From the NCBI GenBank assembly GCA_001938485.1, contig MQRK01236834.1, forward strand, positions 1 through 63,473: a stretch of DNA of 63,473 bases, read 5' to 3'. Each line of letters begins with the position of its first letter. The stretch's first letter is position 1. Both the position numbers and the translations under genes were made by a program. A model generated the notes under the pieces. It was not told the origin of the DNA. It searched no databases and was given only the letters and a program-made list of their open reading frames with translations. The stretch comes from Girardia tigrina. Lineage: Eukaryota. Shown here piece after piece: positions 1,907 to 57,128 of this stretch.

Positions 1907-3717
1907 TGTAATGAGCTTAAGAATTTCTTCTCGGAAAAACTTGCATGATTCAAAGGAAGGCGTCATTGAGTATTTTAGTAATCTTAAATTATACTACTGA
2001 TAAGTTCTCTTCCATTACTACTTTAGTACGAATAATAATTGTAAACATGTCTAATGAGAAAGAAAGGAAAATATTGAATTCCATACACTTTAGTAAAATA
2101 TTATTTGAGAGATTTGTTTGACCTTGGCTAAATATGTATAAAGTAAGAGAGTAAATTGGATGATATTCAATCAAACGAATTGTTTTTCAATCAAATATCT
2201 ATTTCAATAGGATCAATTTATTGTGACAATTTCTCTAAATCAACAAAGAATTTGATAAATCGAATGAAAATGTTTTAAAAAAAAAATTTGGAATTTGTAT
2301 TTTTTTAAATAAAAATGATTATTATTGTAAAAAAATGGCTTAATAAATAAGATATTAAAATGACCTTGAGGTTCTTTTAATAAATAAAATTGATATATTA
2401 TAATGAAAAGATATTTTTAGTTTTAATTATTTTGAAAGTTATGAAATTTGTTTTACTGACTTGAATAATTTTTATGAATGACATTTCGTGGCGAGAATTT
2501 TAATTGAAATTGTTGATTGTAAAGACATTTTGTGTGAACATGACTTGGCGAATTTTGTTGTGAAAGAATTTTGAATTAAATACAATTTCTGAAAAAAAGC
2601 ATTATTAGAAAATTCAAATTAGAAACAAGTTTTGAACTGAAATATAAAAGTTAATTGTCAACGAGTTATTTACTAAACAAACTTTGTTTTAAGAATGAAT
2701 GGTAACAATAGAATAACTGGTTATTTATTGGAAAATGAATGACTATAAGAAATGGTCGCAAAAGTAGTAGAAATTACCACAAAAGAATAAATTGTGTTTG
2801 TGCATTAATTAAATGAAAATCAACTTAAGGGTCAAAGGACTGGGCCGGGTAATTCTTATGTTAATATTTCGGAATTAATTGCTCAAACTTATTTTCGGTA
2901 TTCAAAATAATCTTTTTCTTTAAGTACATTATTAAAGCATTCTTATTCACATTCCCATGTAAAATATCGACCATGAACCTAGTCAGACAGACGCTCATTA
3001 TTACAAACATTAAATATTAATTTCTTAAATATTTTAATACATAAATAATGAAACATTTTCCCAACTCAATATATAAAAATAATAACAATCAAATTATTAC
3101 AAAAATAATAAAAACAGTTTTCATTAGATTAAGACCGAATTTTCTCTTCTTTGGCACGAAGCAATGTTTAAATGAAGCTCAAATTCGTTTTTGGAATGGT
3201 AATTTTTGGTCTGACTTCGATCATTAACCTTCACGAAAATTTGAAGTTTTTTCAATCTTCTTTTTACTTCTTCCTTAAATCTTTTCTTAATCTTCTAGTG
3301 ATTGAAATTTAACTGTATTTGCTATTGAAGTCCCGGCTGCCGGGCTGAGTGGCGACGGATAGCACCTCTTAATTGTGCTGGAAGTTGATGGGCGAGGAAA
3401 TCGAACTGTCGGTTGAGTGGGTGCTATGAGCCGGTCGAGCCCCATTGCCACCGGTCGGAACATCAATATGTAAAGCTGTGGCTTTCCGTACCGCGTTACC
3501 GACCCAGTGACCACCGGATCAACTCGATGAGGCGGATGATCTCGTCGACTCGTCAATCCGCGATCCATATGCACCAAGATATGTAAGGTGGCGGGATGTG
3601 TGGTTCGACCGGTCGAATCCGAGGGGTGGAGATCGTTATTTTTGTGATCATGCTTTCCGTGAAATAACCATTCGAATCGATCAATACCAATCACCGATAT
3701 CATTGCCAGACATTTCG

Positions 3718-3901
3718 CAGTGATGCACGGGAAATAAGAACCGAATTAAAAAAAGAAAATTGCTTTGGTGTTTTTAAGAAATGAGAATAAAATATATTAA
3801 ATTTAATGAATTCAAAATTGTTAGTTTTTCATAATTTCTTTAATATATTAAAACACCAAAAATCCGTTTTTTATTTCGGTCGATTGACCGGAGCACCACA
3901 G
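3718..3901. mobile_element. Degenerate MITE
   Basis: Imperfect ~50-bp inverted ends: gtgatgcacggg..accgaattaaaaaa..ttggtgtttt versus aaaacaccaa..ttttttatttcggt..ccggagcaccac. Confidence 0.4.
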
Positions 3902-5036: not shown

Positions 5037-6165
5037 CTGCAAATATAAACTTGTTTTAATTATGATTATTTATATTATTTTATATTTATCTTATAATATC
5101 TCAATTAATATTTACAATCATTAAGAAAACAAAATTAATATTTATTATTTATACTGTATTTAAAATAACATTTACCAAATGATATTTTGTTTAATATGTA
5201 AAGCACGAAATATTTAGGCAATAACAGAATTTTTGTGAAGTGCATTAGTTTTATTCCTAACACCTTTATAACTAAGAAATATTATTATTATTATAACTAT
5301 TATTACGATCACAATAATTGTAAGAATTATAAGTATAATTTATAAGATATTTTAATTCTCAATATTTAAATAATTATTAGTATTAATAAATATTTATATC
5401 TATATCCATTTCTATATTTATAATAAACGGTTAAAAATAGAAATACTAAAATTATCCTCAAATAAAAACAGTTGTTTAAATAAACAGGAATATTGCGTGA
5501 AAATGCAAAAATTGTAATTTAATAAATTATTTTAATGCAGTCGTATTTTTTTGTTATATAAATATTCGAAGAAACAGGAGAAATGTCTACGACCAATGTC
5601 GTTCCTAACAATAATAATTGTTTAACTTAGGTTACCGACGAGTATTGGTTGATAAAGTTTAGTTAAACTGATAATAAAAAGTGCCGAATAATATAAAAAT
5701 AATGTAAATAGTTTTCTATAACGAATTATAATAAATACAAATGACAAGATAATACAAGATAGAAGAAGTGCCTCACAAGTTTGAACCACAACAAGATGAT
5801 AGATAACTATGAATCACATATCTGACGACAATCGCCAAGCAATAAAGTTCTTTCTCAGTTAATCAGCACAAAATATGGAAACGGTCTCTATGCAATCAAT
5901 ATAATCGTTTGTGGAATATTAACTGTAAGAATTGTTCTGTCATTTTTTTATAATTCTACGAGCTCCGAAAATATAATCAGATTTTGTAGCGTTCGGATAG
6001 AAAGCGCAATAATCAATTTACCCTGATTTGTGATTGAACAAAAAATCAAGGCTCGTTTCCGCAATATTAAGTACCGGATAAAGGTTTGCAGATAGAGAAA
6101 ATAATATGGTATTTATTCTTTTTATTTTTAAATTTATTTATTAGTATCCTTAATCAATAACGTTA

Positions 6166-6557
6166 TTTTTTTGGGCCGTGGGTGCACTCAATTATGCACA
6201 AGCATATGGTTTCATGGGTTTTCATATATATTTGAATGTCTCAGTAGGCAAGGAACGTGGTGACGCCTATCTCCTCTCCAGGTATGGATGGCCGTTGGCT
6301 CCAAAAAGATCATCCACCCTTTGCAAGGTTTTGTTTTTCATCCTGCTAGGTGTCGGCACACCTCTTCATCCATATTGCTCTGGGCGAGGCAGCCGGTTAG
6401 GTCGCCTACAGGTTTACATGGTACCTGTAGCAGACAGATTGCCTAACTTGACCACTAGTCAATGGCCCCGCGATTTTCCTATTGGTCACCCAAATAAGGT
6501 TGCTTGACTTCAGAGATCGTACGAGATCCGACGTACCCAACTGCGGCCATTGACTAC
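6166..6557 (-). mobile_element. 5S rRNA-derived SINE (SINE3-like)
   Basis: Minus-strand head GTCAATGGCC..CGGATCTCGTACGATCTCTGAAGTCAAGCAAC..TTGGGTGACC..GGCCATTGAC aligns to 5S rRNA (GATCTCGTxxGATCTCxGAAGxxAAGCA, box A, box C, terminal helix I). It is followed by ~290 nt of unrelated body and an A7 tail. Confidence 0.75.
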
Positions 6558-8372
6558 TACGTCATAGATAATTCAAAATAATAATTTAATAATAATAATA
6601 TATAAAAATGATAATAATTTTTTATAATTAATGTTTCTTCCTTCTGAATGCACCATATAGGAGCGATAACTGAAAGTATGACCCCCTACAGGGACTGGAA
6701 CGGAGAGGACACAACAATAATAATATTTTTTTAAAATTTAAAAAATACATTACACAAATATTTGGTAATATAGTACTATTACTATCACTATAATAATTAA
6801 TCACTATAATTAATAATAATAATTAATCAGTTATTATTATTAATGATGCAGTGACAGAATCGGGAACAGGTGATGAACCGATCAAATTAATTGATTAAAT
6901 GTCACTCTTCACATTTCCCGTTCAATTATTGATTAACCCATTCAGATTTGTGCTCCCCCTTTTCATTTTATCCTATATTAAAAAATAATATTATTTATTT
7001 CAATAATATAATAATCATTAATAACATATTGATAAAATTTCATTTATTTTCCTTTGTAAAGATGAAAAGAAAAATCTTTTCATTTACATTAAAAATATTT
7101 TTTTAATATTATATGGAATTATTTAATGTACAATAAAAAAATAAATTTTAATTCTAAGGTGTTAGTTTTTTTTAGGATTTCAGGAAGGCACTACTTCGAC
7201 GTCATAGAGCATGGCCCAATAAACCAAAGCTCAAATGGACACAGTCTTTTGTGTACCTTAACCATCTAGGTACACGTGGAAATTACTCAATGTTCTGAGG
7301 TTACGAGCTTTGACGTCCTCATCACCTATAATTTCCATCTTACTATACTGTAGTCATAAACGTAACAATAAAAATTTGCATAAGCCTAACTTCTTTAAAA
7401 ATAAAATAAAAATAACTTTTTAGAAAAAATATTATCTTTGTCACTGCATATTGTCTTGTACAATCTCTTAACGAAAATACTAAATTTTCGTTTCCCTATT
7501 TAATGTACTTAAATGGGCAAAACGAAAAAAATAATTTCCCAAATCAGGCAGTAAACATTTCGAGTGCTTCTTCAAAGTTCTTCACGATTGTTAACATTTT
7601 TTAGTTTTGGTAATTCCGTTTTTTATTTTTTCTTTTGTATTATATTAAATCATTAATTAATTTATTGATACAAAAACTGTGGAGCCTGAATATCGTTCTC
7701 CAAGAAGGATTTTTATAGCGTTTGAAGGAAAAATAAAATCTGTTTTCCAAATAAAAAGGAAATTCTTTAGAACAGAAACAATTTCTTTTGGGTTTTATAA
7801 GTAAATTTTAGTTTTATGGTAGAATCTAGATAGAAGAAGAATTTATTTTAATTTTAAAAGTTAAGACTATTTTAATATTTAAGTAAAGGTCATCCGTCTT
7901 TAGACGACTAAAACATAGTTGGACAACTCAAAGAATGAAAGTTAAAAAAAGAAAACGACGCCGAAGGACCTCGGCAGAATATTGTGAACAACATAACAGG
8001 AAGTTCCCTGGAATCAGCTCACCAATTGCTGTCGTATACATTGCGAGCAATATTTGAAATTTACTATGTTAAAATTTTATCTTGAATTTTGTATGTGTAA
8101 TTTGGTATTTGCAAAAGTGTTTCCAAGTGGAAATTTGATATTTTGGATATTCGTGATGATTAAATGTTGGAGAATGATTTACATATTAAATTACAACACA
8201 AGATAATTAGAAAATGAAATTATTAATATTGTTAAATTATAAATTAAATTTTGAAAACCGAATTAATAATAATCATTGAAATAACTTTTAAGTATTTTTA
8301 AGTTTTTTTTTTTAAGATGAAATTATTAATTCGATCAATAGAAAGTTTTATGTTAATTTCTCTCTAATGATA

Positions 8373-9940
8373 CAGTCGAACCTCATTAATCCGAACTTCT
8401 ATAATCCAAAAACTTCATAGTGCGAAAGACATTTATTTATTTCGTCAATTTTCGAATGTTCCCCGACAAATTTGAATCATTAATCTGAAATTTCATGATC
8501 CGCAATCGGAAATCTCCTTTTGAATTAAATTTCTAATAATATTTAAAATTTTCGGATTAATGTTGTTTAAATATTTAGCTCGTTTACAATTTTAATTTAT
8601 TAAAATTAAGTATCCATATGACGAGGAAAAAACAGAAATTATAATTCAGCGAAACGTAAATATTAACAGCATCAAAATTGAATGTAAACATTTATTGACA
8701 ACACAAACAGATTCTTCGCAACAATCTTCAGAGGTCATCTTTCTTTGATTGATATAGTTTTTTGTTTATGTATTCAAATTTAAAAAAACAATGGATGGGA
8801 AATTTTTTAATATTAACTTTTAATTTCTAAAAAAAATTTCTTGGATAAAAAGACATTGCGTAATTTTTTAAATATATTAAATTTAATAAGTTCAAATCGT
8901 TTACTAAAAATAATATTAAAATTCATAATTATAAAATTTTAACTAATTAGTACTTAAAATTAATATTAGATTCAAATAATCAATCAATAAACATATCAAT
9001 CCCATCTGAGTAGGAGAGTCACAAATCTAAACAGCATACAAACAACAAACTTACAACATTCCAAATTATCCCTCACATCCCCCTCGATTTAAATGGCCTT
9101 AGCCATTCTACATTTCTTATTAGTATTTTGTCATTGTCGAGTTGAAATTCGTAACTTCTCTCATGTCTCCGTCTTATTATCATTGCAGGGCCAATAAATC
9201 GGTCGTCTTCTTTTGATGCATTTTCTCTCTTTATCAATACCTGGTCTCCAACCTTAAAAATTCTTATCGTTTCTGGAGCTTTTTCTTGTTTTCCCATTTG
9301 TTTTCTTTTATATTCTTTATTTTTCCACCAATGTCTTAATTTCCTTCCATATATTATTTCTGACAATACTTCCGTCCAATCTCTATGCATTCCATCCTTT
9401 ATTCTGATATTAAGAACATCTCTAATCGTTCTAAATTGTCGTTCTCTAATTCCATTGGTATTGTGATGATACGGGCTTGCATAAAATACTTGAAGAAACT
9501 GTCACTGGGGGAATTGCGTCAAATTATCAGAAGAGAATTGATATTAAAAAAGTGAAATTTCTACGTTATTATGAATTTTAAAAAATAAAAAGAAATGGGA
9601 AGATTGTGATAGTTCAAACCCTTGCTCCTGACGATCTTCGAAAAGTCTTTCTCTGCATTAAAATTTAATGATGGAATGGATTCAAAAAATTAAGTGACTG
9701 ATGAAATTATCATTGCAAAAGCAAAGGAATTTGGACAAAAACTAAATGTTAATGACCTGCGAATGATTGATCTATAGAATCAAAAATTGATTTATTCTGA
9801 AATTGAAATTTCTCCTCAGAAAAGCTAAATCTATGAATAATGTTGATGTACCAGCCCAAAGAAAACAAATGGTTGAAAAATAGACAGAAATTGACCCAGA
9901 CGTTTTACTCAAAGGATGAAACTGGAATTTTTTTCAAGCA
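8373..9940 (+). mobile_element. Tigger/pogo relic interrupted by a Gypsy fragment
   Basis: TA|CAGTCGAACCTC terminus with repeated TAATCC(G)AA subterminal motifs. An MTRKKQKL start precedes the insertion; DEIIIAKAKEFGQKL and DETGIF motifs follow it. Confidence 0.6.
8661..9490 (-). mobile_element. Gypsy family A 3' fragment: integrase C-terminus, PPT and 3' LTR (8661-9077)
   Basis: Reads ASPYHHNTNG..ERQFRTIRDVLNIR..DWTEV..IIYGRKLRHWW..FKVGDQVLIK..FIGP..RNVEWLRPF. The polypurine tract GAGGGGGA is immediately followed by the LTR start TGTGAGG. Matches the element at 61419+. Confidence 0.85.
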
Positions 9941-10986
9941 TTTCATTTTTATTTCATTTATACAAGCTCATATATAAAGTGATATATCATGATTCCAAGC
10001 GATGATTTTAAAAAAATATAAATATCACGATGTACTTCTTCTTCTGTCGAAAAGAAAATTTGGAGGATTAGGACCCTTCCTCTTCGTTAACAATAAGCTT
10101 AGCGTAAAAAAGGGTTAATGAGAAATAGTATTGTAATGTTAAAATTTTCATTAATACAATATTATAATTATTATTTTATTATTAATAAATCAAAAACATA
10201 TTTTTAATTAATTTTGTAGTATCCTGATCCAGCATTCGAGGTCTGTTTTAATACAATTTTGACGATGACAGAAAATACTTTAGACTGAAGAATTATTTAA
10301 TTAATAAATCTTTGAATTTTAATGTTTTTAATTAATTTTTTTCCTAATGCTGGAAGCGCAATTTGTAAGGAGTCCAATCCAGTCGTGACTAGGAGAACAC
10401 AGTTTCAGTTGTCCCAACACGGCAGGAGGATATTCCCAAGTAAAGTATTATGTGAGTCGCTATAACAACTGATACTAGGCAATTATTTTCTCTAGGAATT
10501 TTCCTACAAATTCTCTCTCGAAATACTTTTCGAAAGTCAATTTAATTAATAATTTTAAAGTAAACTTATGGCTGTTGAGCCCTCAGTCAATGATGCTTCC
10601 TGTTTTAATAAATTCACGTTTGTTTACTCTATTCTTATTAATAAATATTTTATTTTTCCCATTGAAATAGAGAAAATTGGGTTGTGTTATAGTAGAAACG
10701 TTTCATTCGCAAATTTGAGGATCTTTTGTCTATTGGAAAAATAATTAAAATATACTATTCGTAAAATATTGGGTGATAGCAAATAATATGGACTTTGATT
10801 ATGAGGGAATGTGGCAAGCAATTAGAGGATTTATAAAGATATCGTGAAGTACCACATCTATTCATCATGGAGACATGTATAAAGTCGAAAAGACGACTAA
10901 TTTAAAATGTTTAATAATATAACAAATTGAAAAAAGATGGCAATTTTTTATTATAAACAAATAAACGCCATTTTAAAATAGATTTC

Positions 10987-11029
10987 GTGATAATATATTT
11001 CGACGGTTTAACCGTCATCATCAGATAAC
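10987..11029 (-). ncRNA. Minimal type-I hammerhead ribozyme (PLE-associated)
   Basis: GTTAT-CTGATGA-T-GACGGTTAAACCGTC-GAAA-TATA-TT-ATCAC; core intact, one mismatch in helix I. Confidence 0.75.
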
Positions 11030-11958
11030 TGATTATGTTCTTTTTTATTGCTGTTATATAAGAAATGAATGAATTTACAGTGGAACAGGAAATAAACGGA
11101 AAATTAACATTCCTTGATTTGTTAAATGAAAGGAAATATGATCATTATGAAACTGAAATATATCGAAAGAAAACTGATACTGGTTTGTACACCTCCATAA
11201 ACAGTTTTTGTGAGTTTAAATATAAAAGGAATATGATCAAACGTTTTTTATACTGTTCTTGGTCTCTTTCTTCTACGTTTTCAAAATACATTGACAAAGT
11301 TATTCAATAATAACAGATACTCTAAGTCCATCATAGACAAATTCACTCGTGAGACTGTAGATAAAATAATCGAAAAAGAAAAAATCAAAAATGAACAAAT
11401 TAATAGTTTAACCATTGAAAACTGCTTTACACCTGGGTATACTCTAAGCTAACCTTACTCCGAGGGTTTTAAACACGTCAAGAATTCGATCTTGAAATCA
11501 ACAAATAATATTTTAAATTTAAAAATTATTTCTCAATCATTTAAAGTTGAGAATATGTTTTGCAATAAATCACATACTCCTTTAGGATTGTGTTCGGACA
11601 TTGTTTATCAATACACATGTAATGGGTGCAATGCCACATACATCGGAGAGACTACCCGTCATCTCTGCAAACGAGTCCAATAACACAGTCAAAAAGGTGG
11701 AAAGAGTAATATTGCTGAGCATAAAAAAACGTGTAAATGTAATATGAGCATAAATGATTTTAAGATTTTGTGCAAGCATTTTAAAAATTATTGGGAGAGA
11801 GTGTCATGTGAAGCATTGTTGATAAGATCATGTGATCCTAAAATCAAATTTCAAACAGCACTCTCAACTAATTTATTAAGAGTATTCGATTAGACATACG
11901 TAAGTGTTAGTATAATCATTCATTTCTTATATAAAATCAATAAAAAAGAACATAATCA

Positions 11959-12001
11959 GTGATCTGATGATGACGGTTAAACCGTCGAAATATATTATCA
12001 C
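11959..12001 (+). ncRNA. Minimal type-I hammerhead ribozyme (PLE-associated)
   Basis: GTGAT-CTGATGA-T-GACGGT/TAA/ACCGTC-GAAA-TATA-TT-ATCAC: helix I GTGAT/ATCAC, 6-bp helix II, palindromic minimal helix III. Confidence 0.8.
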
Positions 12002-12753
12002 AAAATATATTTTTAAATGGTGTTTATTTGTTTATAATATAAAAAATAAATATTGTTGTCCCTCCTCAACAATCCAAAAATAAAACCGATAAAAATCGCT
12101 AAATTCCGATAGAAAATCAAATAACGAATTCAAAAATTTTTATTAATCAATTATAGAAAAAAATGAATTTTTTTAAATATGGTAAACCTTTTTGCGATGA
12201 ACTTTTTAATTACATCATGTTACACTTTTTGTTTGTAGAAGGTATTTGTAAAATATTTTCTAAAATTGATAACAATCTTTTGATAATGAAATGTTTTGCT
12301 TCTGTGAATTCTCCACTGTCATTCGTTCCTCTATTTGCATTACTCTCTTTACGAATGAACAAAGAATTTCGAAATTGTAAATCGCTTTGATGAACTTTAT
12401 GAGCATACTTGGTCGTTTACCGTGCGATCAATTTTCTAATTGTTGGTAATAAATATCAGCATTATAAGTCATCATCTTGTTTATGAACCCTAAATCTCAT
12501 CAAATATAAAACTCTACTTGTGATCCGAATAGATGATAGAAAACATCTTTTCTATGATGCATAGTTTATTCATGAGTGTCGTTTACTTCCCTGGTATCAA
12601 TAGGATCAACTAGCTAACAATGCTAACTTCCTGGGACGTTAATGAACATTTTTATAATCTGCTTTTTCTTAATGAAATTAATAATGTAGATTGTTTTTAA
12701 AAAAACATAAACCTGTGCATGGCAAAGTTAAATATATACAAGGAAGAAAAATA

Positions 12754-12793
12754 GGGTGACGCGTTTCGAGAAAAGCATCTCATCATCAGGTCC
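12754..12793 (-). ncRNA. Hammerhead-like motif (second PLE-type family), helix I damaged
   Basis: GGAC-CTGATGA-T-GAGA(TGCTTT)TCTC-GAAA-CGCG-TC-ACCC: intact core, palindromic CGCG helix III and GUC cleavage triplet, but helix I does not pair. Confidence 0.55.
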
Positions 12794-12840
12794 ATTCACA
12801 CATAGCACTCAACTAGCACACTATACGGAAACAGTAATTA

Positions 12841-13050
12841 CAGTATTTTTCCGTGTATAAGAACCCCTTTTTTGTCAAAATTTAATGAACATTTTACGCG
12901 AAATTTCAAAAATTAGTAAATATTTGAAATTTTTCTCAAACACAAAATATTTAATATATTTTCTGGAATGAATTAAAGTATTTTTTTTGAACTTTTGAAA
13001 AATGCACACCCAAAAATAAGGGGATGGGTCTTATACACGGAAAAATACAG
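12841..13050. mobile_element. pogo-type MITE
   Basis: TA|CAGTATTTTTCCGTGTATAAGAACCC ... GGGTCTTATACACGGAAAAATACAG|TA; ~25-bp TIRs and TA TSD. Confidence 0.8.
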
Positions 13051-14015
13051 TAGTTGAGTAATAATACTTCAACAAGTTGTCTCTTCAACAAAATGCATTT
13101 ATTTATTGTATAAATAAGGAAAATATATCGCTAAAATGTTTAAGTACCTCCGTACAAGGTTGTAACATTGACATGTGGAATAAAAAAATATATTGCAACA
13201 ATATCAAATATATATTTTGGAAATTTAAATATCTAATGTTAAATCGAAATAATTTCTTACATAAAAATTAAAAAGAAATATTTTATTGAATACAAAATTT
13301 AATATTAACAATTTATAACAATCTTCCGAATTTCGTCATTTTTAAAATAACCCCCAAACAAATTCCGAATTTTTGTTCTTTATTGTTGATCAATTTCTAA
13401 GTTATAACATTAATATAATTTATTTTTTTATATTTTTTGTTAGATAGAGGTAACCAACAGTCTTGTACATATTCAGTGCCTCACATCAACAAATAACCCC
13501 CAAAAATATTAATATCATTTCTGTTTGCAAGTATCAGAATTTTAAACTTCTGGAAATACATAAATGTACATAAAAATGATTTCTATAAATTTATTTACTT
13601 TTTATGAGGATAAATATTTATCATTTCCCCGTAATATAGCAATCTCAATCGATGGAGCGCCCAAAATGGAATGTAAATAAATATCACTTTTTATCACATT
13701 TATTCAATAAATTTGTCAGTGACATTTTAGAACGACTTTTCCATTTCTACTTCCACTAACATCTTTTTTACCAATTATTTTTATTATTATCATCGTTTAA
13801 TAATAATTCGATCATTAATCTTCATTTAAACTTTCTGTTAAAATTTAAAATTTTTGTTGGCGTTAAAATTTTAAAATGTGTTCTGTAAAAAACTTGATAT
13901 TTTGTTTCGGTAGTAGCCAACTACTATTACTACTAATATATATGTGTGTGTGTGTGTGTAAATAAATAAAATATAAATATGAAAATCATTATTATTATCG
14001 ATCGATTCAATAATA

Positions 14016-14065
14016 CAATAAACAATAAACAATAAACAATACAATAAACAGATTCAATAAACAAT
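14016..14065 (+). repeat. (ACAATAA)n short tandem repeat
   Basis: acaataaacaataaacaataaacaatacaataaac... Confidence 0.8.
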
Positions 14066-14879
14066 CTGATGGTTGGATTTATCCGAATTTTCTTCGCCAA
14101 TTCAGTCATGACATGACGATTACATCAAATTTATCAATTTTGACATCGTGGATTTATGTTTTACAACATTCTCGATATTTTGAGTGACCCGTGTGATAAT
14201 GGGTATTCATTCGCAAGCAAATACCACCATATCATATCGATCAACAACCATCAAATTACAGTTATTCAGATTTTTGAACGATATCGCGATATGTGCCATT
14301 TCGATGTTGGAAATTTTGATAATACTGGCAGCGATCTCGAACTTAGTTCTTTATTGTACAACTTTGAAAAAGAAGTCAAAGAATTAATTGATAATGCCTA
14401 ACAACAGAGCATGATGTGACATCATACACAAAATAATATAATTCAATCGTTCCTATTCAATGTCTAAGTATTACTGTCTATCAAAGTCCGATGATTTGAG
14501 TTGAATTGGAAAAATATTCAAGCTGATTTCCGCATTGTTTTTCTGTGACGCATCCAATCGGATCACTTCATTTTGCTGGGTTTTCTGCTTTAGCCGAAAC
14601 TGGAAATTCGTATTATATGGCACTATTGCCGATGAATTTAAATGAAACTACCGGCACCTAAACCACTTACATTGCGAGTTCACCCGACTAATGTTTAGTA
14701 ACATACTAAACAGGTAAATCAGCATTTGTACAACAAATTTCGAGTGACAATTGCGGTTCACCTATTTTGAATTGGCCAGAAAGATACTTATTGTCACCGA
14801 ATGATTTGATAATTAATTATATTCATGATCATTTGGTGTCTATTGTGTAACTGATAACCATTATTCATCTAATTATTAT

Positions 14880-15137
14880 ATTATTATATTATTGGTTAAA
14901 ATAAAATTACTATTTATCATTTAAAGATATTAATTTAATTTAATAATTTACAAATTAAAATAAATAAAAACATTTAAAATTTGCAATCATAATAAATTAA
15001 AATTTTTAATATTAAATCTAAATTTGAATAAATTAGTTTCAGATGATAAGAATTAATATATGAAACATTCATCTGAGTAGGAGAGACACGATCCAAAATC
15101 GACAAACTAAACATCAACATTCCAAATATTCCTCCCA
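14880..15137 (-). mobile_element. Partial LTR, Gypsy family A
   Basis: Core CATCTGAGTAGGAGAGACAC and LTR 5' end aatattcctccca (cf. aatattcctcaca). Left boundary is approximate. Confidence 0.65.
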
Positions 15138-15482
15138 CTCCGTAATTATAAAAAGCATGGTTCTTATCATTTCTTGGCTGGTGGAGGAAGGATTTTAATT
15201 ATAATATATTTTGAAAACCTACTTCTTGATTGCTCATTAAAAGGTATCCTGAATTATAATGAAAAAACAGTCAAACAGAGATATGAAATCAGAATTGAAA
15301 CTGACTAAACACAAAATAGTTCTAAAAGAAGTTGAAAGAAGACCAACAAATCTAAACAAGATAGAAAATGTAAACTCAATAAGAAACTGTTAAATCAAGA
15401 AGGTTGAAAAATGTGTTAATTGTGGTTGGTTGGGTTGACTAAAATCGGTGTTTTACCAAATAAAATTTAATTGGCTTTTAAA

Positions 15483-16972
15483 TTAGGTTGGTCGAAAATA
15501 ATGGCGGTTTTTGAGCTTTATACTTTGTTTATCTACTTTGATATGTATATAAGTTTAAATGCATTTGTGTTAGATATTATTTGAAATCTTATGCCTAGCT
15601 GTATATTCATATAGCCATTATTAACATATTGCTGTTACTTTTTAGAATATTTACGGTGCTAAATTAATAATGGAAAAATTAAAATTCGAGCAATTTTCTT
15701 GTACGAATTTAAACTGGGTCGTAAAGCAGCAGAAACGGCTCGCAATATCAATAAAGCATTTGGCAAGGGAACAGCTTCTGAGCGCTCAGTACAACGATGG
15801 TTCCGAAAATTTTCTGATGGAGATGAAAACCTTGAAGATGAAGAAGGTCATGGTCGTCCAGTTGCTGTGAACAACGACAATTTGATGACAATGGTGGAAA
15901 CAGATCTCCGTACAACAATCAGAGAACTTGCAGAAGGGTTGAGCATTAGTCATTCAACAGTCCTGGATCATTTTAAACAACTTGGAAAAATCAAGAAACT
16001 TGATAAATGGATTCCACATGATTTGAATGAAAATCAAAAGAACCGACGCTATGAAATTTGTTCTGCTAATCATCTTCGCAATAAAAACGATCCATTTCTT
16101 GATCGTATTGTTACATGTGATGAGAAATGGATCCTGTATGATAACCGACGTCGATCTGCACAGTGGTTGGACAAAGATGAAGTACCGAAACACTTTCCAT
16201 AACACCCCGTAAGGTTATGGTGACAGTTTGGTGGTGTGATGCTGGAATCATCCACTATAGTTTCTTGAATCCAGGTGAAACAATAACAGCGGAGAGGTAC
16301 TGTCATGAAATGGATGAAATGCATAAAAAATTGAAAACCCTTTGTCCGGGATTGGTCAATCGAAAAAGTCCCATCCTTCTTCATGATAACGCTATACCTC
16401 ATATTTCAAAAGTGACTCTTCAAAAGCTTAANNNNNNNNNNNNNNNNNNNNNNNNNNNNNNNNNNNNNNNNNNNNNNNNNNAAAAGCTTAATGAGTTGGG
16501 CTATGAAACCCTGCTTCATCCACCATATTCACCAGACCCCTCGCCAACGGACTTCTACTTTTTCAGGCATTTGTACAACTTCCTACGTGAAAAAATTTTC
16601 TAAAACCAAAACGATGCTCAAAATGCCTTCCAAGAATTCGTCGCTTCGAGAACCGATGCATTTTATGCTGATGGAATAAATCAACTTGTTTCTCGTTGGC
16701 AAAAATGTATTGATGCCAACGGTTCATACTTNNNNNNNNNNNNNNNNNNNNNNNNNNNNNNNNNNNNNNNNNNNNNNNNNNGCCTTCCAAGAATTCGTCG
16801 CTTCGAGAACCGATGCATTTTATGCTGATGGAATAAATCAACTTGTTTCTCGTTGGCAAAAATGTATTGATGCCAACGGTTCATACTTTGATTAATAAAC
16901 CTTTGTTTCTGTGAATTTGCACGCCTTTGAAGTTTGTGCTCCAAAACCGCCATTATTTTTCGACCAACCTAA
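15483..16972 (+). mobile_element. mariner element, cecropia/Hsmar1-like, disrupted transposase
   Basis: TIRs TTAGGTTGGTCGAAAATAATGGCGGTTTT / AAAACCGCCATTATTTTTCGACCAACCTAA|TA. Protein YEFKLGRKAAETARNINKAFG..WIPHDL..IVTCDEKW..HDNA..HPPYSPDPSPTDF (D,D34D). Has frameshifts, stops and assembly gaps. Confidence 0.95.
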
Positions 16973-19381
16973 TATATTGCTTGGTGGGACATCCTGTATA
17001 TCATTTGAACTGTAAAATGCAAGAATTCAAAAAAAACAAAAATATTGCAATAATTTCAAATTCATTTATTTTATTGAATTAAACGTTTAGTTCATTTGAA
17101 ATAATTTTAGAACATGTTGAAAATTTTTCTATTTTTATACATTTATATTTAATTCTCATTGGAAAATTGTATTCTCCTAATCGACAAGTACATAATTTTA
17201 TTTTTAAAATTCTGCAATTTTCACAATTCCCAAAGATAAATCTCAAGTTTGGACCGAGACATTATTTACGATTCACAGACGATTGAATCTCCAAGATTAA
17301 TTAATGTCGATATAATGGAATAATTAAATTAATATTCTTTAGTCAACCAACTATATTTTTAAATTAAATTATTTAAATGAGATTCATTTGATTTAACAAT
17401 TTTTATTTCTCATTTAAATTATGAGAGCAAATTCCAATTTTCGTTTTCCTTCACCTAAAAGTTTAAATTTTAATTTTAAAATTTGACATTAAATTTGACA
17501 ATAAATAAAATCTTTGATATTACAATTTGCTCCCTGGAGAGAATCTTCATTATTATCGATCACGTACAACACACACACACACACATTGACACACAGTGCT
17601 TGACACACACACACACGCACACTTACGTAAACATACATTTTCCACACATCGACTTTCAATTGAATTATTATTCGATTTCAAACGCAAAAGAAACAAAAAA
17701 ATAATTGTCATAAAATTAAAAAAAATATTTAAATTAAAAATTTAAACAATTTATTTCTAATTTACTAATTTCATCAATTTCCGTTAAATGAAAATTATCT
17801 CCCAAGTGTTACTTAGATTATTGGTTTCTGATTAACACTAGGAAAATTATTTTGAAACGAATGTTATAGGGGAACAATTACACAGATAAAAGAAAGGAGG
17901 AGCAAAAATATTTTGTAAGACTGCAAAACACAGAAATAGCTTCACCGCAATTCTCCTGCATTTCGGTTCTAAATTTGAGACTCAAAATTATCGGAAATTC
18001 GACTAAAAATATACATGTCCTAAAAGACTTGTATCATATGAAACTAGACATTGAAAGCCTGTATTTGGATATATCTTTTATATTCGTACAATATCTGAAA
18101 ATTTTATTCCAACTTCTGTATTCATTTCAAACATAAACAGATTTGTCATGAAGCCATAAAATTTACTCATATTTTGACAGATTCTTTCAATGCAACTAGC
18201 AGTTTAAAAAAATAAAATTAACACGTATAATAATAATAATAAAATTAATAATTTTTATTATTCGAAAGAATATTAATCATTATTTAATAATTTTGAAAAG
18301 TTATAATCATTCAAATGTATTTATTTATTTCAAATTAATAAAATATAGTAAAAAATTATTTCATTGATAAAACTCTGAATTTATATATGTTGTTTTAATC
18401 AAAAAATATTTTGGAAACGAGCTTAAAGTTTAGTTTATTGTATAATAAATAATTACAATCAAAAATATTTTTTAAGGATTCGAATTGCAGTTGACAATTT
18501 AGCCATCCGAAATCGAAATAAACCATTCAACTTTTGATAATTAAGCTCTCAATAATTGATCAAATAATCTTTCGTCAAACAAAACTAAATTTCAATTCAT
18601 TCACAAAAATTCGAAAATAATTTGCCAAAAATTGAAATGTAATTCAGTCAAAAAGAATAATGAATTTGTGCCAAATGTCAAACAACTTTAATTTAATAAT
18701 CACAATTTGAAAACTTAACAGTTAATACAAAATTAATCACGTGTGTCTTATTCTCAATTTAATTTTACACCAATTCTTTTGTTTTCAAGGTCATCCAATT
18801 TTAACAATCTGATTTAGTAAAATAAATTTATCTTATTATAATTATTTAAATTATTAATAATAATATTTAAAAGCAAAATAAAACGTCTCAAATAATTCAA
18901 CTATTGCTGTCTTTTCAATTCTTGAAATGAATTTTTTGAAAAACGAATTCTTTTAATATAAATAAATGCAAAAATTAAAGCTAACAATAACAAAAAATAA
19001 ATATATATTATTTAGAATTTCGGAACTAATATTATAATTATTGTTCTTATTATTATTTGAAGTATTAGACATGGACATTTGAAAAATTATAGGAGGAAGT
19101 TGAGAATGTGATTCTATTTAAAAGAAGGTCAATTTGATCCAAAATGTCCTCAAAAAGCTTATTATCTTTCTACATTTCAAGAAAACATCGAGCTGAATTT
19201 TTAATTAAAATTACCTTATTGGGATCAGATTCTTTCGACGAACCTAGGAAAAGAGGTATTTCAAAAATTATTTCCAATTATACCCATTTTCAAAAATGTT
19301 AAAATTAAAATTGGATGTTATTATTTAAGAGTTTTTTCAATAAAATCTGATGAAAATATTTCTCAAATATTATAGTCATAC

Positions 19382-19969: not shown

Positions 19970-21707
19970 TGTTAATATTGCAAAGGTCTAAATTATTACA
20001 ACATCACAACTCGAATTGCCTCTAGGACGATTCTCCACCAAACCTTGATTAATTTAAATTCTATTTCTAAATCTCTAATTATGCGAACAAATTAATTTAC
20101 GATTCTCTACTAAAATATTTTAAGATAATTATCAAAAATATATTAATTCATTTTAAATAACTTATTGGGTTGTTCGGAAAGTCATTTCGTTTTTTAATGT
20201 ATTTTTTATATTAATAATCATTAATAATCATTGACAATATTATTTATTTTAGTAGTTGGTAATCAAGGTTAGATTTGGAAAATTTTGGAATAATTAAAAA
20301 CATTTATATTTGATTGTGGACCTATCAAAGATGGAAAGCAAGAATCAGCATTTACGGCACGTATTACTTTCTTAACTTTCGAAAAGGTAAAAATGCTGTA
20401 CAATCAAGAAGAAAATTATGCGAAGTGTATGGAGAAGATGTGTTGACAGAACGCCAATGCTAAAACTGGTTTAATAAATTTAGATCCGGAATTTTTGATG
20501 TTGAAGATTCTTTACGTTCCCGAAGGCCCATTGAGGCCGACGAAGACATAATAAAGACATTAATTGATTCAAACCGGAAAATAACAACTCGCGAAATTGC
20601 GCAGACATTACATTTATCTAATTCCACTGTCCATGATCATTTGAAGCACCTACGTTTTACATCAAAACTCGACACATGGATTCCTCATAATCTTACCGAA
20701 CGAAATTTATGTTGTCGTTTAGACATCTGCGATATGGTTCTCAAACGTCAAGAAAATGATCCATTTTTGAAGCGCATCGTCACTGGAGATGAGAAATGAG
20801 TAATCTACAATAATGTAAACTTCAAGAGATCTTAGAGTAAAAAAGATCGACTTGCTCAAAGCAGTTCGAAAGCTGACATTAATCAAAAAAGTGATGCTAT
20901 CTGTTTGGTGGGATTTCAAAGGAATCGTATTTTATGAGCTTCTTCCGGACAAAACTACGATCAATTCGGACGTCTACTGTCATCAGCTGGACAAATTAAA
21001 TGAATCCCTTAAACATAAAAGGCCAGAATTGATCAATAGAAAAGATATAGTGTTTCACCAAGATAATGCCAGACCTCATACAAGTTTGGTAACTCGCAAA
21101 AAAAGCTTTTACAGCTTGGATGGAACATCATGCCTCACCAACCATATTCTCCAGACCTCGCACCTTCTGATTATCATTTGTTCCGGTCTCTACAAAATTA
21201 TTTTGATGATAACACTTTTTGATCAAATGAAGATGTTAAAAATCACCTGGAAAAGTTTTTTAGCAGCAAAGAACAAATATTTTATGAACGTGGAATCTTG
21301 TCCCAGCCAGGAAGATGGAAGAAGGTATTGGACCACAATGGTCAAAATGTATTTCAATAAGATATTTATTCGTCATAAAAAATTGTCTTTTCCTTTAATA
21401 CAAAAAAACGAAATGACTTTCCGAACAACCCAATATTTATAATTAAATAAATCTTTATGTGTTAATCAACTATAAACATATTTTAAATCACTTTAAAATA
21501 GGTTTTTAAAATTTTTATTAAAATATTATTATTATTTATTGATTAAGATATATTGATTTAATTTTAAAGTTGTTATTTACATTTCAAAGTTTGCCAAATA
21601 ATCCGACGGTTCAAAATATCAATATTCCATTTGAATGAGAGAATTGGTTTACGGAATATGGGTTTAAAACAACATACAATTAACACGACCCGAAAATATT
21701 CCTCGCA
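19970..21707 (-). mobile_element. Solo LTR, Gypsy family A, split by a mariner insertion
   Basis: LTR 3' part (cacaactcgaattgcctctaggacgattctcc) lies left of the mariner. The core ccatttgaatgagaga and LTR start aatattcctcgca lie right of it. Confidence 0.65.
20165..21433 (+). mobile_element. Full-length mariner (mellifera-like), dead transposase
   Basis: Perfect TIRs TA|TTGGGTTGTTCGGAAAGTCATTTCGTTTTTT ... AAAAAACGAAATGACTTTCCGAACAACCCAA|TA. Protein MESKNQHLRH..FRKGKNA..WIPH..IVTGDEK..KVMLSVWWD..FHQDNARPH..YSPDLAPSDYHLF, with stops and frameshifts. Confidence 0.95.
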
Positions 21708-27995: not shown

Positions 27996-29137
27996 TATGT
28001 TTACCGTATCCTTACAGAGGATGTCGATGATCAAGATCTAAACGTAGCAGGAATCAAACTTTTCTTCTCATTTTGGAGGAAAGGAACCATGTAAGGTAAA
28101 GAAATACACCAAATCAACTAATAGTAAAAATAATACACAAAAAACAAAGATATTATATTCTATAAACTCTCTGTTTCTCAATTTATATTCATCATATTTT
28201 CATTTTAATTAAAGTTATTGAAAAAGAAAAACAGTTTCCCCATTCTCTCGAATAATCTCACAAATCGTCACTGATTCTGCAGCTTCCTGTTGACAACAGA
28301 TGCCGTGTTTTATAAACGCATTATTTCGACAAAGATGCATCCAGTTAGAAACATAAATCTGAAGTTATTTACAGTCTCCCTTTCTTTTCCTTTCGTACCA
28401 CTTCACAAAATAATTATTGGAAGAGCTTTGCATGGCATTATTTACACTTGTTCTTATAGGATTAGTTGAGAAAATTAATATTTAGAATATTTTATACATA
28501 TACTGATGTAGATTATTCATCACCTCTAACGGTATCGAATTACTAATAACTATATTTAACTAGATCCGATAGAGCAGATCCAATGACGGGTTTGTTTGGG
28601 AAGCGTTCGAGTACCCTTTAAATATCAGTGGAGAACATTGGTGACCCACTGTTTCCCGCAAATGCGTTGATTCTCTAGACCAACAATCACCGATTATAAC
28701 CTACATGAGATCTGTTTCTCGTTTCATGTTCCTATTAAGATAGACGATCTCCAGTTTTGCTTGAATCGTCCCTCCATATCCGTGGATGGAGAAACTGATG
28801 GTGAATATAGAAACACGAAGTATTTTATGAGGAAAGATTTCATAGTAATTAAATATAGAAAATACAGTTTCTGATAAAAAAATTGTTTTATTATATTTAA
28901 AATTTTGTGTGGTGTAACCCCAATTTACATTTTACTTAAACAAAATCAATAATTAAAAAATAAATTTTCACATATATCAAAAAAAAGTATTTTATTAATA
29001 TAATAACTGATCAAACGTCATTTTAATTTTAAATATCAAAAGGTCCAAAATCGAAACCAATTTAATCTCATAACTTAATATTCTCAAGCAACATTTTATA
29101 ACTAGTAACTCCAGAAAAATACATTCGTTTTAAATTT

Positions 29138-29760
29138 AAAAAATTCTTAAGCCAATCAAAGTTAATTAAATTCGACGGTTTAACCGTCATCGTAAGAACA
29201 AAAGATTCTTCAAACGAAATGTACTTATATAGTGCAGTTAATGATTATGTAATCAATACGTAATCAGTACATCATTTAAAAACTCTCAACAAAGTTGTAG
29301 AGAATGAAATTTGAACGTTAATTATAGGATCCAAAGATCTTATATATAATGCTTCACATGTCACTCTCTCCCAATAACTTTTAAATTGTATGCACAGAAT
29401 TTTAAAATGTTGTGAAGTTATATCTCCTTTACAATGTCTTATATGTCCTGCAATGTTACTTCCACCTTCATTTCGACTGTGTTCCTGGATTCTAAATTTT
29501 AAAATTATTAGGAGAGAGTGACATGTGAAGCGTTATATATAAGATCTTTGGATCCTAAAATAAACGTTCAAACTGCATTCTCTACAACTTTGTTGAGAGT
29601 TTTTAAATAATGTACTGATTGCGTATTGATTGCATAATCATTAACTGCACTATATAAGTAAATTTCGTTTGAAAAATCATTTGTTCTGACGATGACGGTT
29701 AAACCGTCGAAATTAATAAACTTTGATTGGCTTGGAAATTTTTTATTTGATAATTTGCCA
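29138..29760. mobile_element. Penelope-like foldback: truncated minus-strand copy plus inverted plus-strand pLTR
   Basis: ~250-bp inverted arms (29138-29386 and 29494-29745). Minus copy encodes the endonuclease tail IQEHSRNEGGSNIAGHIRHCKGDITSQHFKILC..YWERVTCEALYIRSLDP. Confidence 0.88.
29683..29721 (+). ncRNA. Minimal type-I hammerhead ribozyme (PLE-associated)
   Basis: GTT-CTGACGA-T-GACGGTTAAACCGTC-GAAA-TTAA-TA-AAC. The partner copy at 29161-29199 (-) has core mutations (CTTACGA, GAAT). Confidence 0.78.
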
Positions 29761-30074
29761 ATTTTATTTCAATTTATTCACGTTTTAAATTTATTGTAAA
29801 ATTAAGGATTCTAGATATTCAATATAACATTGTGAGTTAAATTGATTTTTCATTATTTCAGTACAAAATATTTTAATACCGTGGGGGTCAATGAATTACG
29901 TGGATTAATTGCGATTTTAACATTTTCTTTCTTTCCTTATATTATTACTGTGTGAACACATTTGCTATGTAAGTAAGAATATTATTTATCCGATTGTATA
30001 TTGTGAAGACAATATTTCCCAGGTGTGAACATCCCAAGCTTTTCTGATTGTGTTTATACATAATATAAATATAA

Positions 30075-41187: not shown

Positions 41188-41477
41188 GGTATGATTATAC
41201 TTATTTCTTTTAATGTCTATAAACAAAATAATTCCCTTAGAAAATGGCCTTATAGTTTATAAGAATAGTGAACTCTTGAAAAAATTATAATTAAACAATG
41301 AAACATTAAGAACCAATGAGTTTTTTAGTTTTCTTTGCCAAAGCCCTCAACCCCGTTACACTGTTCTTGGTTTAAATTTGAGATTCTATGGGGGGGGAGT
41401 GATTATCTACTTTACTTATCTGCCATTTTTTGTATTTTAAATATAGTATTTAATTTTGAATAAATTGAAATAAATTT

Positions 41478-41825
41478 GGCAAATTATCAAATAAAAAATC
41501 CTTAAGCCAATTAAAGTTTATTAATTTCGACGGTTTAACCGTCATCGTCAGAACAAATGATTTTTCAAACGAAATTTACTTATATAGTGCAGTTAATGAT
41601 TATATAATCAATACGTAATCAGTACATCATTTAATAATTCTCAACAAAGTTGTAGAGAATGCAATTTGAACGTTAATTTTAGGATCCAAAGATCTTATAT
41701 ATAATGCTTCACATGTCACTCTCTCCCAATAATTTTTAAAATGAGTGCACAGTATTTTAAAGTGTTGTGAATTTATATCTCCTTTATAATGTCTTTTATG
41801 TCCTGCAATATTACTTTTACCTTAT
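41478..41825 (-). mobile_element. Penelope-like 3' fragment (same family as 29138-29760)
   Basis: Near-identical to the minus arm of the 29-kb foldback. Confidence 0.85.
41516..41554 (-). ncRNA. Minimal type-I hammerhead ribozyme, intact, sense to PMCA pre-mRNA
   Basis: GTT-CTGACGA-T-GACGGTTAAACCGTC-GAAA-TTAA-TA-AAC on the minus strand. Confidence 0.78.
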
Positions 41826-42338
41826 TTAATTTTGTAAAAACTTGCTAATCTCTGTTTAAATCTTCTTACAATTTTATCTTTAACTTCATTCTAAAAAGTA
41901 TTTAATTTACAAATTTTAGTATTTTAAGTTTTATGTTAATATTTCTTTTTTTACAATAACTTCTATTTTTTATTTTATAATATAATATTAATTTATTTCT
42001 TTGAAATGCAATTTTTTTATCTTTAGTTTATGATATTTTTTAAATGTTTTGTTAGTTTTTAATTCAAAAATCAAGGTTTTTAAATCAAAGATTTTCTCAA
42101 TATCCTCACAATCTAAACATTATATCAATTCAAAAATGGTTTTTTTAAAAAATATTTATTTAATCGATTTAAAATTTTATACTTTATAAAAAATTTTAAC
42201 ATTCAGGTATTTAAAAATTTATTATTTTATTAATTTAAAATTTTCAATATCTCATGTTGCACAATATAAAATATTAATCATGCTCGAATTTACTTATCAC
42301 AAACATCAAAAATGGCAATTTTTCGTCTTGGTGGAGAA

Positions 42339-44068: not shown

Positions 44069-46454
44069 TTTTTGCGACGGCAAATGTATTAAAAACAAAA
44101 GTTTTGTGCTGTTAATATTTTAATATGATATCTAATTATCATATTTTTGTTTTATACTAATTAATAAATTCTAAATAGTACATAGAAATATGATTTGATT
44201 TTTATAGATTTTATGTTTTTGCCTTGCTCACCGTTAATATTTTATAGTTTATATTACCCTTGTTGCAATTAGCGTTTGAAGGAAAGTCGATTTTGCCAAT
44301 TTATATTTTTTAGCAAATATAATCTCTGATTTTGATTTACCTGGTTTAAATAGGACAGACAAAATTGATTATATAAATTATTTATATTTTTAGAACTGTC
44401 ACAGTTTATCACTATTTAATACAAAAAATTCTTTGAACGATTTTTAGCGAAACAAAATTCGTGATGTGAATCTTTTGATTTTGCCGCCACAAAACACATT
44501 CTTCCACGCTTTCCTTCCTCATCCTTGTTTTTGTATGTAAAAGTAACGAATTTACTACCTATTTGCTAATTTGTCAAATTCACTACTTTTACCATAAATA
44601 GAAATAGTTAAACAATGACCTAACTAGGTTAATCAAAAAGAAAGAACAGTATTGGATGAACCTAGTTGTGAATGAACGTTAATAAAAAACCAATAGTCAA
44701 AAGAAAATAAAAAAACTCAGTTATCAAACAAACTTTTAATAATGAATGACATATGTGGATTACACATACTGAGAATCATATTAGGTAAGCCATAGTTATA
44801 ATAATAATTTTCGTTGATTTCAATTTTTAAATTCAAATCATCATCAATGTATTTGAATAATTTTCATTATTTCATATCACTAAATGACGACGCTGCCTCT
44901 TTGTATCACACTATATTTATCAGTCACAAATCCAGATTTTGCGTATTTACTGATAATCACATCAACCATTCGAATCATTTAATTAATTTTTATCATTATT
45001 GTAAAAGTGAGAGATTTCATTCCAAAGCTGACTTTTCTTTGGGTTTATGAGATAACATTTACCAATATATTTATGAACACATTCATAATTCTGGTATTTT
45101 TACCTTTCAATTCATTCCAAGAAAAGAAAAAATATATAATATTTATTTTATATTCTTGTAAAATTACTGAAACATATATCACATCAATCTAATTACCACT
45201 TGGATTCATCATGGTTATGATGATGAGGAGGAGGATGAAGATTATTATTATTATTATTATTATTATAGACAATTCATCATCTACATACTAGAACAGTTTT
45301 AAGTCATATTACAAAATGTCAGGGTAATAATAATGAACATGAAAAAAGTTTTAAGTTATTTTAAATAATTTTAACATAAATTGTGAAAGGATCATTGCCG
45401 AAGCATTGTTAATAAAGAATAATAAACCATGCTTAAATATGTAACGTCATTTTTAATATCAAAATTTAAAAGCGTGTGTTTTGATTTTTGTAATTCAGCT
45501 ATATAAATAGTAATTAATCTATTTGTCATTGCAACTGAAAATGCCATAATGGTGAAACGCATCTGATTTAAAACTAAATTTAATGATAAATGGCATTTGT
45601 TTTCATTATTATTAAAAATGATATTATTCATTGTAGAATATATATAATACAATTTCAGAAAATGATTTTTTATTGAGGGAAATCCTAATATTTCCTTTTC
45701 GCTGTTTCGAAAGCAAAGAGTGCCTTAGGTTAATGTTGACACAGAAAATGAAAAACAACTTTACAAAGGATAATAGTTTATTCCTTCAACGACCCCATAA
45801 TTTATCAATCAGAGATCCGGCCATTGCACTGATGAATCGTAATTCAATTAAAACAATTTCCTTAAAAGGAAAATTATCAAAGTTCAAACTATAAAAGCCG
45901 AAAAAATGGAAAAATTACCACATTTTCCCGAATTTACGTCTCCCCAGTGTTTCTTTTTTCAACATTTCTATTGAAATATTATTTATATTATATTTTGAAG
46001 AATGAAAACCATTTTCTCCTTCCATCACTTATAATTTGAATAAAATTCTTTTCTTTCTAATTATGATTTTTTTTATTAAATATTTCAAGAAACAAAAGAC
46101 TCCTCAAGGAAAATATTTGCAAACTTCAAACAGAAATAAACTATAAAATAAATTTAAGGCAAAACTTCTCGACATCGGTTGTACGCTTTGAAGGAAGGTG
46201 ATGGACGAAAGGAGTCGTGGACAGACAAATGTCGTCAATAATTCATCCACATAATTCAAAGAGAATTGTGAAAAAAATATTTCGACAAATAAATCGAAAA
46301 ATAAATTTAATGTTTCAAAGGACAAAAAGAAACATTCTTCTGAAATAAGTTATCAAAATATTTTTTAGTCAAATAACATAAATTTATTTGTTGAAGTTGA
46401 GCATATTGTTGAGCATAGGAAAAATTGTAAATATGATTTGAGTATAAATTTAAA

Positions 46455-56860: not shown

Positions 56861-57128
56861 CAGTTCTCTCTAATAAGACACAACATTTTGTGCCAACAAA
56901 GCTATCATAAAGATATACCCACAGCTTTCCAGAATTTTCCGAAAATTAAAATATATTGTGCATGTGGTAATGAACGATTCCACATACTCATTTCGTTTAA
57001 ATATACCGGGTTTCAATTTTGATATTAGTTGATCCACATTCAAAGTCCGGATCGGTTCAATTTTTTTATCATAAGTTACCAAGTTATAATAATTTTGAAT
57101 TGTAGTGTTTAAATTTTCAATTATAAAT

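What the first reader, a model, noticed from the sequence alone, without database searches (positions are those of the whole stretch)
6166..6557. 5S rRNA-derived SINE (SINE3-like) with a remodelled head
Seen: a GC-rich island whose minus-strand first ~100 nt aligns with 5S rRNA. Box A and box C are kept, while ~18 nt including the intermediate element are missing. A perfect 12-bp terminal stem is formed (TAGTCAATGGCC/GGCCATTGACTA). The body has an 8-bp hairpin (CTACAGGT/ACCTGTAG) and a second 5S-start-like motif (GCCAACGGCCAT), and ends in A7. Established: 5S-derived SINEs are much rarer than tRNA-derived ones. Inference: this is possibly an undescribed family in this lineage; its partner LINE is unknown.
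Basis: partly seen in the sequence, partly recalled or inferred. Interest (0 to 1): 0.7.

Follow-up and report, generated by a model that had tools for sequence, protein, structure and literature searches.

The report
5S-derived SINE-like insert in flatworm intron
This is a 390-base insert in a flatworm gene's intron that starts with a shortened copy of the 5S ribosomal RNA gene and lacks part of its promoter; it is probably an old copy of a known type of small mobile element, but its copy number is unknown.

Summary
The 5S-like head is real. Rfam aligns 6554-6457 (minus strand) end to end with 5S rRNA: 28.6 bits, below the gathering score of 38, local E 6.5e-4. The perfect 12-bp stem (3 of 1000 shuffles) is 5S helix I slightly extended, not a new invention. 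Box A is kept. The box A-to-box C spacer is 9 nt against 26 nt in 5 of 5 published 5S-derived elements I could view, so 17 nt are gone, including the intermediate element and the start of box C. The second 5S-like motif, the A7 tail and a candidate target-site duplication are at chance level, and a T5 run interrupts the body. The element lies in a 14-kb intron of a calcium-pump (PMCA) gene that groups with flatworms. A 2026 preprint reports expanded, automatically labelled SINE/5S and RTE LINEs in Dugesia planarians. No second copy occurs in the window, and no eukaryotic genome could be searched, so SINE status (many copies) is untested. Best reading: an old, probably promoter-dead copy of a flatworm SINE3 family. 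It becomes interesting only if the deletion is family-wide.

The parts
6166..6556 (-). Whole 5S-derived SINE-like element, about 390 nt including the A7 run
   Evidence: GC segment 6173-6563; no second copy in the window
6457..6554 (-). 5S rRNA-derived head, 98 nt, spanning both ends of 5S with internal deletions
   Evidence: Rfam RF00001, model 1-120, 28.6 bits, E 6.5e-4
6545..6556 (-). 5' arm of the 12-bp stem (5S helix I, extended)
6456..6467 (-). 3' arm of the 12-bp stem; no T-run terminator follows it
6537..6549 (-). tRNA-type A-box-like motif with one extra base; picked after the fact, and no B box was found
   Evidence: consensus recalled
6495..6509 (-). 5S box A
   Evidence: box limits recalled
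6493..6501 (-). 9-nt spacer where published elements have 26 nt; site of the 17-nt deletion (intermediate element and start of box C)
   Evidence: against sequences shown, counted by eye
6484..6492 (-). Remaining core of box C (loop D region)
6303..6455 (-). Middle body, origin unknown; folds better than shuffles (z -2.48, 5 of 200)
6406..6430 (-). 8-bp hairpin with a 9-nt loop
   Evidence: 37 of 1000 shuffles; region 6394-6446, z -2.37
6303..6307 (-). T5 run, a possible Pol III terminator about 250 nt from the 5S start
   Evidence: the terminator role is inferred from general knowledge
6288..6299 (-). Second 5S-start-like motif; not above chance against the head
6173..6302 (-). 3' body, the presumed LINE-recognised part; origin unknown
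   Evidence: z -1.79 for 6166-6308; last 48 nt, z -0.59
6166..6172 (-). A7 run; either a tail or ordinary AT-rich flank
5037..19381 (-). Host intron (14.3 kb, GT...AG) of a PMCA gene; the element is in sense orientation, 1.1 kb from the acceptor

Best explanation
It is one copy of a 5S rRNA-derived SINE (SINE3 kind) in a free-living flatworm, probably a triclad. Shown: a near full-length 5S head without a terminator, joined to about 285 nt of unrelated GC-rich body, inside an intron. Inferred: a source copy was transcribed by RNA polymerase III from the internal 5S promoter (TFIIIA, then TFIIIC and TFIIIB) and read through into the body. A LINE enzyme, most plausibly RTE, recognised the 3' end and inserted the cDNA by target-primed reverse transcription. 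This copy is probably old and silent: it lacks the higher-affinity TFIIIA sites, carries an internal T5 run, and has no clear target-site duplication.
For: 5S match over the whole model. Head-body layout under 1 kb, not tandem. Sharp GC boundaries at both ends. Size like lepidopteran SINE3s: HaSE3 349 nt, PxSE4 and PxSE5 389 nt. The host gene groups with 13 of 14 flatworm rows, outside both parasitic-flatworm clades (SH-aLRT 94, quick tree). Dugesia genomes show expanded SINE/5S and LINE/RTE, with most TE activity old. SINEBase notes that most SINEs carry extra body sequence, unlike RNA pseudogenes, and far outnumber them. TFIIIA binds the intermediate element and box C more tightly than box A (PMC12409998).
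Against: Copy number untested; no second copy in 63 kb. Target-site duplication and tail at chance level. No simple-repeat tail of the kind the RTE-dependent SINEs show. The conserved core of the RTE 5'-UTR domain is absent. The 5S score is below the gathering threshold. The host genus is not established, and the same preprint finds SINE/5S seemingly absent in Schmidtea. The Dugesia labels come from RepeatModeler and DeepTE and include SINE/7SL and SINE/Alu in a flatworm, which I take as a sign of unreliable labels. The tree's flatworm group also holds a long-branch yeast row and leaves out one long-branch flatworm row.
Confidence: 0.58

Rival explanations
1. A one-off chimeric retropseudogene: a LINE enzyme switched template from another RNA onto cellular 5S rRNA, and the copy has since decayed. 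The deletion is private to this copy.
For: The head spans both ends of 5S, as a copy of mature RNA would. Single copy in the window. The promoter is broken. The inner fold is no better than shuffles. Template switching is the proposed origin of HaSE3 itself (PMC3272025).
Against: A 12-bp stem that is still perfect fits poorly with decay long enough to give several deletions. Such chimeras should be rare next to SINE copies.
Confidence: 0.2
2. A host or selfish Pol III small RNA of about 250 nt: a 5S-shaped head plus a three-hairpin domain that ends at the T5 run. The last 130 nt would be a separate piece.
For: T5 at 6307-6303. The middle domain folds (z -2.48) and helix I is perfect. The 3' module is bounded by its own 7-bp inverted repeat.
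Against: No Rfam family apart from 5S at E up to 10. The promoter lacks the intermediate element and no B box was found. GC content is about the same on both sides of the T run.
Confidence: 0.09
3. A solo LTR or fragment of a TRIM with a 5S promoter (Ajax or Cassandra kind), moved by a Gypsy element.
For: The island can be read from a TG at 6564 to a CA at the start of the A run. Ajax (421-434 nt) exists in another spiralian and has many more LTRs than internal parts, the excess expected from solo LTRs (PMC10886601). Gypsy-like RNase H and integrase domains occur in the window.
Against: No internal direct repeat above 9 nt. The 4-5 bases outside TG and CA do not match. Ajax keeps only the promoter part of 5S, with 26-nt spacing, and its LTRs are under half this length.
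Confidence: 0.07
4. A 5S fragment carried by a non-autonomous DNA element or a Penelope-like element, or an orphan of a variant 5S repeat unit with its spacer.
For: The window is rich in mariner and other mobile debris.
Against: No inverted repeat joins the two ends. No hammerhead core or HDV-like fold with my descriptors. No tandem array. No terminator after the 5S part.
Confidence: 0.06

Closest known systems
SINE3 families: HaSE3 (PMC3272025), PxSE4/PxSE5 (PMC8010984), CoeSINE5 and SINE-1_Pmo (PMC5786205)
   Same: 5S-derived head with box A and box C core, a non-5S body, length 225-390 nt, frequent intronic position.
   Different: HaSE3, CoeSINE5 and SINE-1_Pmo keep the 26-nt box A-box C spacer (PxSE sequences not seen); this copy has 9 nt. 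This copy keeps both strands of helix I, whereas SINE-1_Pmo aligns only to 5S 29-116 and CoeSINE5 to 18-89. No LINE-derived segment or repeat tail is identified here.
SINE/5S class in Dugesia genomes (10.64898/2025.12.11.693146)
   Same: Same phylum, probably the same order, and the same label. AT-rich genomes with expanded RTE LINEs.
   Different: Identity with this element is untested.
Ajax and Cassandra TRIMs (PMC10886601)
   Same: 5S-derived promoter in a short element. Both Ajax LTRs also show a tRNA-A-box-like stretch upstream of box A (by eye).
   Different: No paired LTRs and no fixed-length duplication here; Ajax keeps the intermediate element.
5S rRNA pseudogenes
   Same: Near full-length 5S outline with deletions.
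   Different: A 285-nt GC-rich extension with sharp boundaries follows the head.

Membership tests
SINE (SINEBase definition, PMC3531059) | Short (under 1 kb) and not tandem | tested here: met
   About 390 nt; no tandem array at this place
SINE (SINEBase definition, PMC3531059) | At least 100 interspersed copies per genome | not testable with these tools
   No eukaryotic genome collection; one copy in 63 kb
SINE (SINEBase definition, PMC3531059) | At least 60% identity to 5S rRNA over at least 60 nt | tested here: inconclusive
   Counted by hand: 32 of 47 aligned columns at Rfam model 7-58 and 10 of 10 at 85-94; 29 of 47 against the 5S line. The deletion breaks a 60-nt overlap, and the host's own 5S was not available.
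SINE3 | Type 1 promoter: box A | tested here: met
SINE3 | Type 1 promoter: intermediate element and whole box C at normal spacing | tested here: not met
   9-nt spacer against 26 nt in 5 of 5 published elements. This holds for this copy; the family consensus is unknown.
SINE3 | 3' end shared with a partner LINE | not testable with these tools
   No match in the rest of the window; no LINE library on hand
SINE3 | Target-site duplication and simple-repeat or A tail | tested here: inconclusive
   6 of 7 nt repeat, 153 of 1500 random sites as good; A7 runs are common
SINE3 | Pol III transcription | not testable with these tools
   No expression data
RTE-bipartite SINEs (PMC5786205) | Body derived from the conserved RTE 5'-UTR domain | tested here: inconclusive
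   An 11-of-13 motif match at 6444-6432, with 0.8 expected per window; the conserved core after it is absent by eye. Other RTE 5'-UTR types were not aligned.
TRIMp3 (Ajax, Cassandra) | Two LTRs with primer site and polypurine tract, or a solo LTR with 4-5-bp duplication | tested here: not met
   No internal direct repeat above 9 nt; flanks of TG and CA differ
Functional 5S rRNA gene | About 120 nt, intact promoter, T-run terminator | tested here: not met
   98 nt, below the gathering score, no T run after the 3' end

The most novel reading that the evidence does not exclude
The 17-nt deletion is family-wide and the family spread after it. This would be a SINE whose head keeps the 5S outline (helices I-III, where ribosomal protein uL18 binds; recalled) but has dropped both the TFIIIA DNA site and the helix V/loop E region that TFIIIA binds on RNA (recalled). 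It would be transcribed without a normal type 1 promoter, perhaps from the tRNA-like A box at its 5' end, and could use 5S mimicry to reach ribosomes as Alu uses SRP9/14. A variant of this reading is a 250-nt 5S-derived RNA that ends at the T5 run.
Probability: 0.13. Interest if true: 0.72.

Novelty: new member of a known kind. Interest (0 to 1): 0.36.

Why it matters
5S-derived SINEs are a small minority of SINE families. My searches found none described as a family in flatworms, only an automatic class label in Dugesia. A curated family would test that label and give markers for planarian phylogeny. If the promoter deletion proves family-wide, it would show that a 5S-headed retroposon can spread without the intermediate element, and would make the role of the 5S RNA fold in retrotransposition directly testable. 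If the deletion is private, this is an ordinary dead repeat.

Tried and rejected
Second copy in the window: none (blastn word 7; nhmmer). Phage and plasmid collections: no match at E up to 1. GTDB scan for the two stem arms 75-105 nt apart: 46 loci, none similar beyond the typed arms (best E 0.044 over 18 nt), so chance hits. tRNA: none. Other Rfam families (U1, 7SL, ribozymes): none at E up to 10. Hammerhead core and relaxed HDV-like descriptor: none. Dimeric 5S head: rejected. The plus-strand 117-codon frame across the element has no Pfam match. By-eye likenesses between the body and HaSE3 (a 9-mer, an 8-mer, a 9-of-11 block): my hand score of the best local block is 18, reached by 577 of 2000 random sequences, and the 60 nt between two blocks match at 16 of 60. 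I do not accept these, though no formal alignment was run. RTE 5'-UTR origin: not supported. Host 5S sequence: not found. Host genus: PMCA exon 1 and mariner searches gave no close named relative. Not checked: viral and metagenome contig collections (closed), bioRxiv supplements (closed), Repbase, Dfam and SINEBase sequences (not on hand). The metazoan 5S survey 10.1038/hdy.2013.63 is not held.

Full report
Observation. The island is real: 6173-6563, 49% GC against 22-29% in the flanks. On the minus strand Rfam aligns 6554-6457 to the whole 5S model at 28.6 bits, under the gathering score of 38, with E 0.089 for the window and 6.5e-4 for 461 nt. It is the only hit in both searches. The 12-bp stem is perfect, and 3 of 1000 shuffles of the element hold any repeat that long. 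The alignment shows the stem to be helix I of 5S plus three pairs. The head folds with z -3.13, but without helix I the z-score is 0.57, and neither sub-domain beats shuffles. The structural signal is therefore helix I alone.

Promoter. Box A begins at 6509 and the box C core at 6492, 9 nt apart. The same distance, counted by eye, is 26 nt in 5 of 5 published 5S-derived elements whose sequences I saw: two Ajax LTRs, CoeSINE5, HaSE3 and SINE-1_Pmo. The 5S reference line has 25. So 17 nt are missing, covering the intermediate element and the first bases of box C. TFIIIA binds these two with higher affinity than box A (PMC12409998, passages), so normal type 1 transcription of this copy is unlikely (inference). 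A tRNA-like A box with one extra base sits at 6549, but no B box was found with up to one mismatch (consensus recalled).

Body and ends. The middle part (6455-6303) folds with z -2.48, 5 of 200 shuffles, and holds the 8-bp hairpin (37 of 1000). A T5 run at 6307-6303 could stop Pol III. The 3' part folds with z -1.79. The second 5S-like motif matches the head start at 8 of 10, as 505 of 5000 shuffles do, and the rest of the head does not follow it. I recall that many invertebrate 5S genes begin with this 12-mer, but I could not test that. Runs of 7 or more A or T occur 2.25 times per kb here, and the best flanking repeat (6 of 7) is matched at 153 of 1500 random sites. The ends therefore give no independent proof of retroposition.

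Context. Four exons of a plasma-membrane calcium ATPase lie on the minus strand. The element is in the 14.3-kb intron 19381-5037, in sense orientation. Of the 15 best summed tblastn scores among 99 proteins, 10 are named flatworms, 1 is a leech and 4 are unnamed, at 54-67% identity. A quick tree of 28 named proteins places the window with 13 of 14 flatworm rows, outside both parasite clades, at SH-aLRT 94. A long-branch yeast row falls inside, one long-branch flatworm row falls outside, and the careful search did not finish. Low GC, long introns and mariner debris fit a triclad, but the genus is not shown.

Related sequences. There is no second copy in the window and nothing in phages or plasmids. 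The GTDB scan gave 46 chance loci. No eukaryotic DNA collection was available, so copy number, the defining SINE feature (at least 100; PMC3531059, passages), is untested.

Literature. 10.64898/2025.12.11.693146 (passages and section 2.4; supplements closed, and they may bear on family identity) reports expanded LINE/RTE, SINE/5S and SINE/7SL in Dugesia, seemingly absent in Schmidtea, labelled by RepeatModeler and DeepTE. PMC10886601 (parts 1-4 of 6 and supplement passages) describes Ajax. PMC5786205 (parts 2-3 of 5, supplement passages and supplement part 15) shows that SINE bodies often come from RTE 5' UTRs. This body has only an 11-of-13 motif from that domain (0.8 expected per window) and lacks its core. 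I saw passages of PMC3272025, PMC8010984, PMC2770079 and PMC12681777. PMC6884822 and PMC11410931 had no relevant passage. Searches for a described flatworm SINE3 and for a SINE3 with a promoter deletion listed none. The library lacks most subscription journals, and Repbase and Dfam were not seen. I recall that the fruit-bat MegSINE has a full-length 5S head; I did not read that paper.

Mechanism and verdict. The most likely reading (0.58) is a SINE3-type copy, made by Pol III read-through from a 5S-type source and inserted by a LINE enzyme, with RTE the leading candidate only because RTE is expanded in Dugesia. The head-body layout and the intronic position are shown; multiplicity, partner and transcription are inferred. 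Because one promoter feature fails in this copy and copy number is untested, I call it SINE3-like and do not file it as a proven member. The rivals are a one-off 5S chimera (0.20), a 250-nt Pol III RNA (0.09), a TRIM fragment (0.07) and other carriers (0.06). The bold reading, a family that spread without the TFIIIA sites while keeping the 5S outline, has probability about 0.13 and rests on the perfect helix I beside a large deletion. One genome-wide search would decide it. Overall interest 0.36.

Noticed in passing
window 3290-3750: A second GC-rich island (up to 58% in 200 nt) in the next PMCA intron. No Rfam hit at E up to 5, and its 152-codon minus-strand frame has no Pfam match. It follows a pyrimidine tract and AG on the plus strand. 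Unexplained; perhaps another non-coding repeat.
   Followed up: partly
window 53724-53521, 33987-33820, 19610-19382, 5036-4903 (minus): First four detected coding exons of a PMCA gene, spread over 49 kb; no relative above about 75% identity was found.
   Followed up: yes
window 15663-16968, 20464-21442, 57099-57509, 1-481: Broken mariner transposases and a Tc5-type DNA-binding domain. The first is 95% identical to an unnamed 339-aa protein, P0100.
   Followed up: partly
window 10944-12052, 29137-29780, 41457-41827, 46403-46745: A dispersed repeat family, with two copies 92-94% alike. The translations look like Penelope-type GIY-YIG endonuclease ends (label recalled; the three frames tested had no Pfam match).
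   Followed up: no
window 61798-63472 and 9073-9501: Gypsy-like element with RNase H and integrase domains, and a similar-looking fragment near 9.1-9.5 kb (by eye).
   Followed up: no
window 16625-16731 and 16782-16888: An exact 107-nt repeat on both sides of a 50-N gap: probably a scaffolding artefact of a draft assembly.
   Followed up: no
window 6549-6537 (minus): A tRNA-A-box-like stretch upstream of 5S box A, as also seen by eye in both Ajax LTRs; perhaps convergence, perhaps chance.
   Followed up: partly
window 6307-6301 and 6174-6168 (minus): The T5 run and the A run form a 7-bp inverted repeat around the 3' module; its significance was not tested separately.
   Followed up: no
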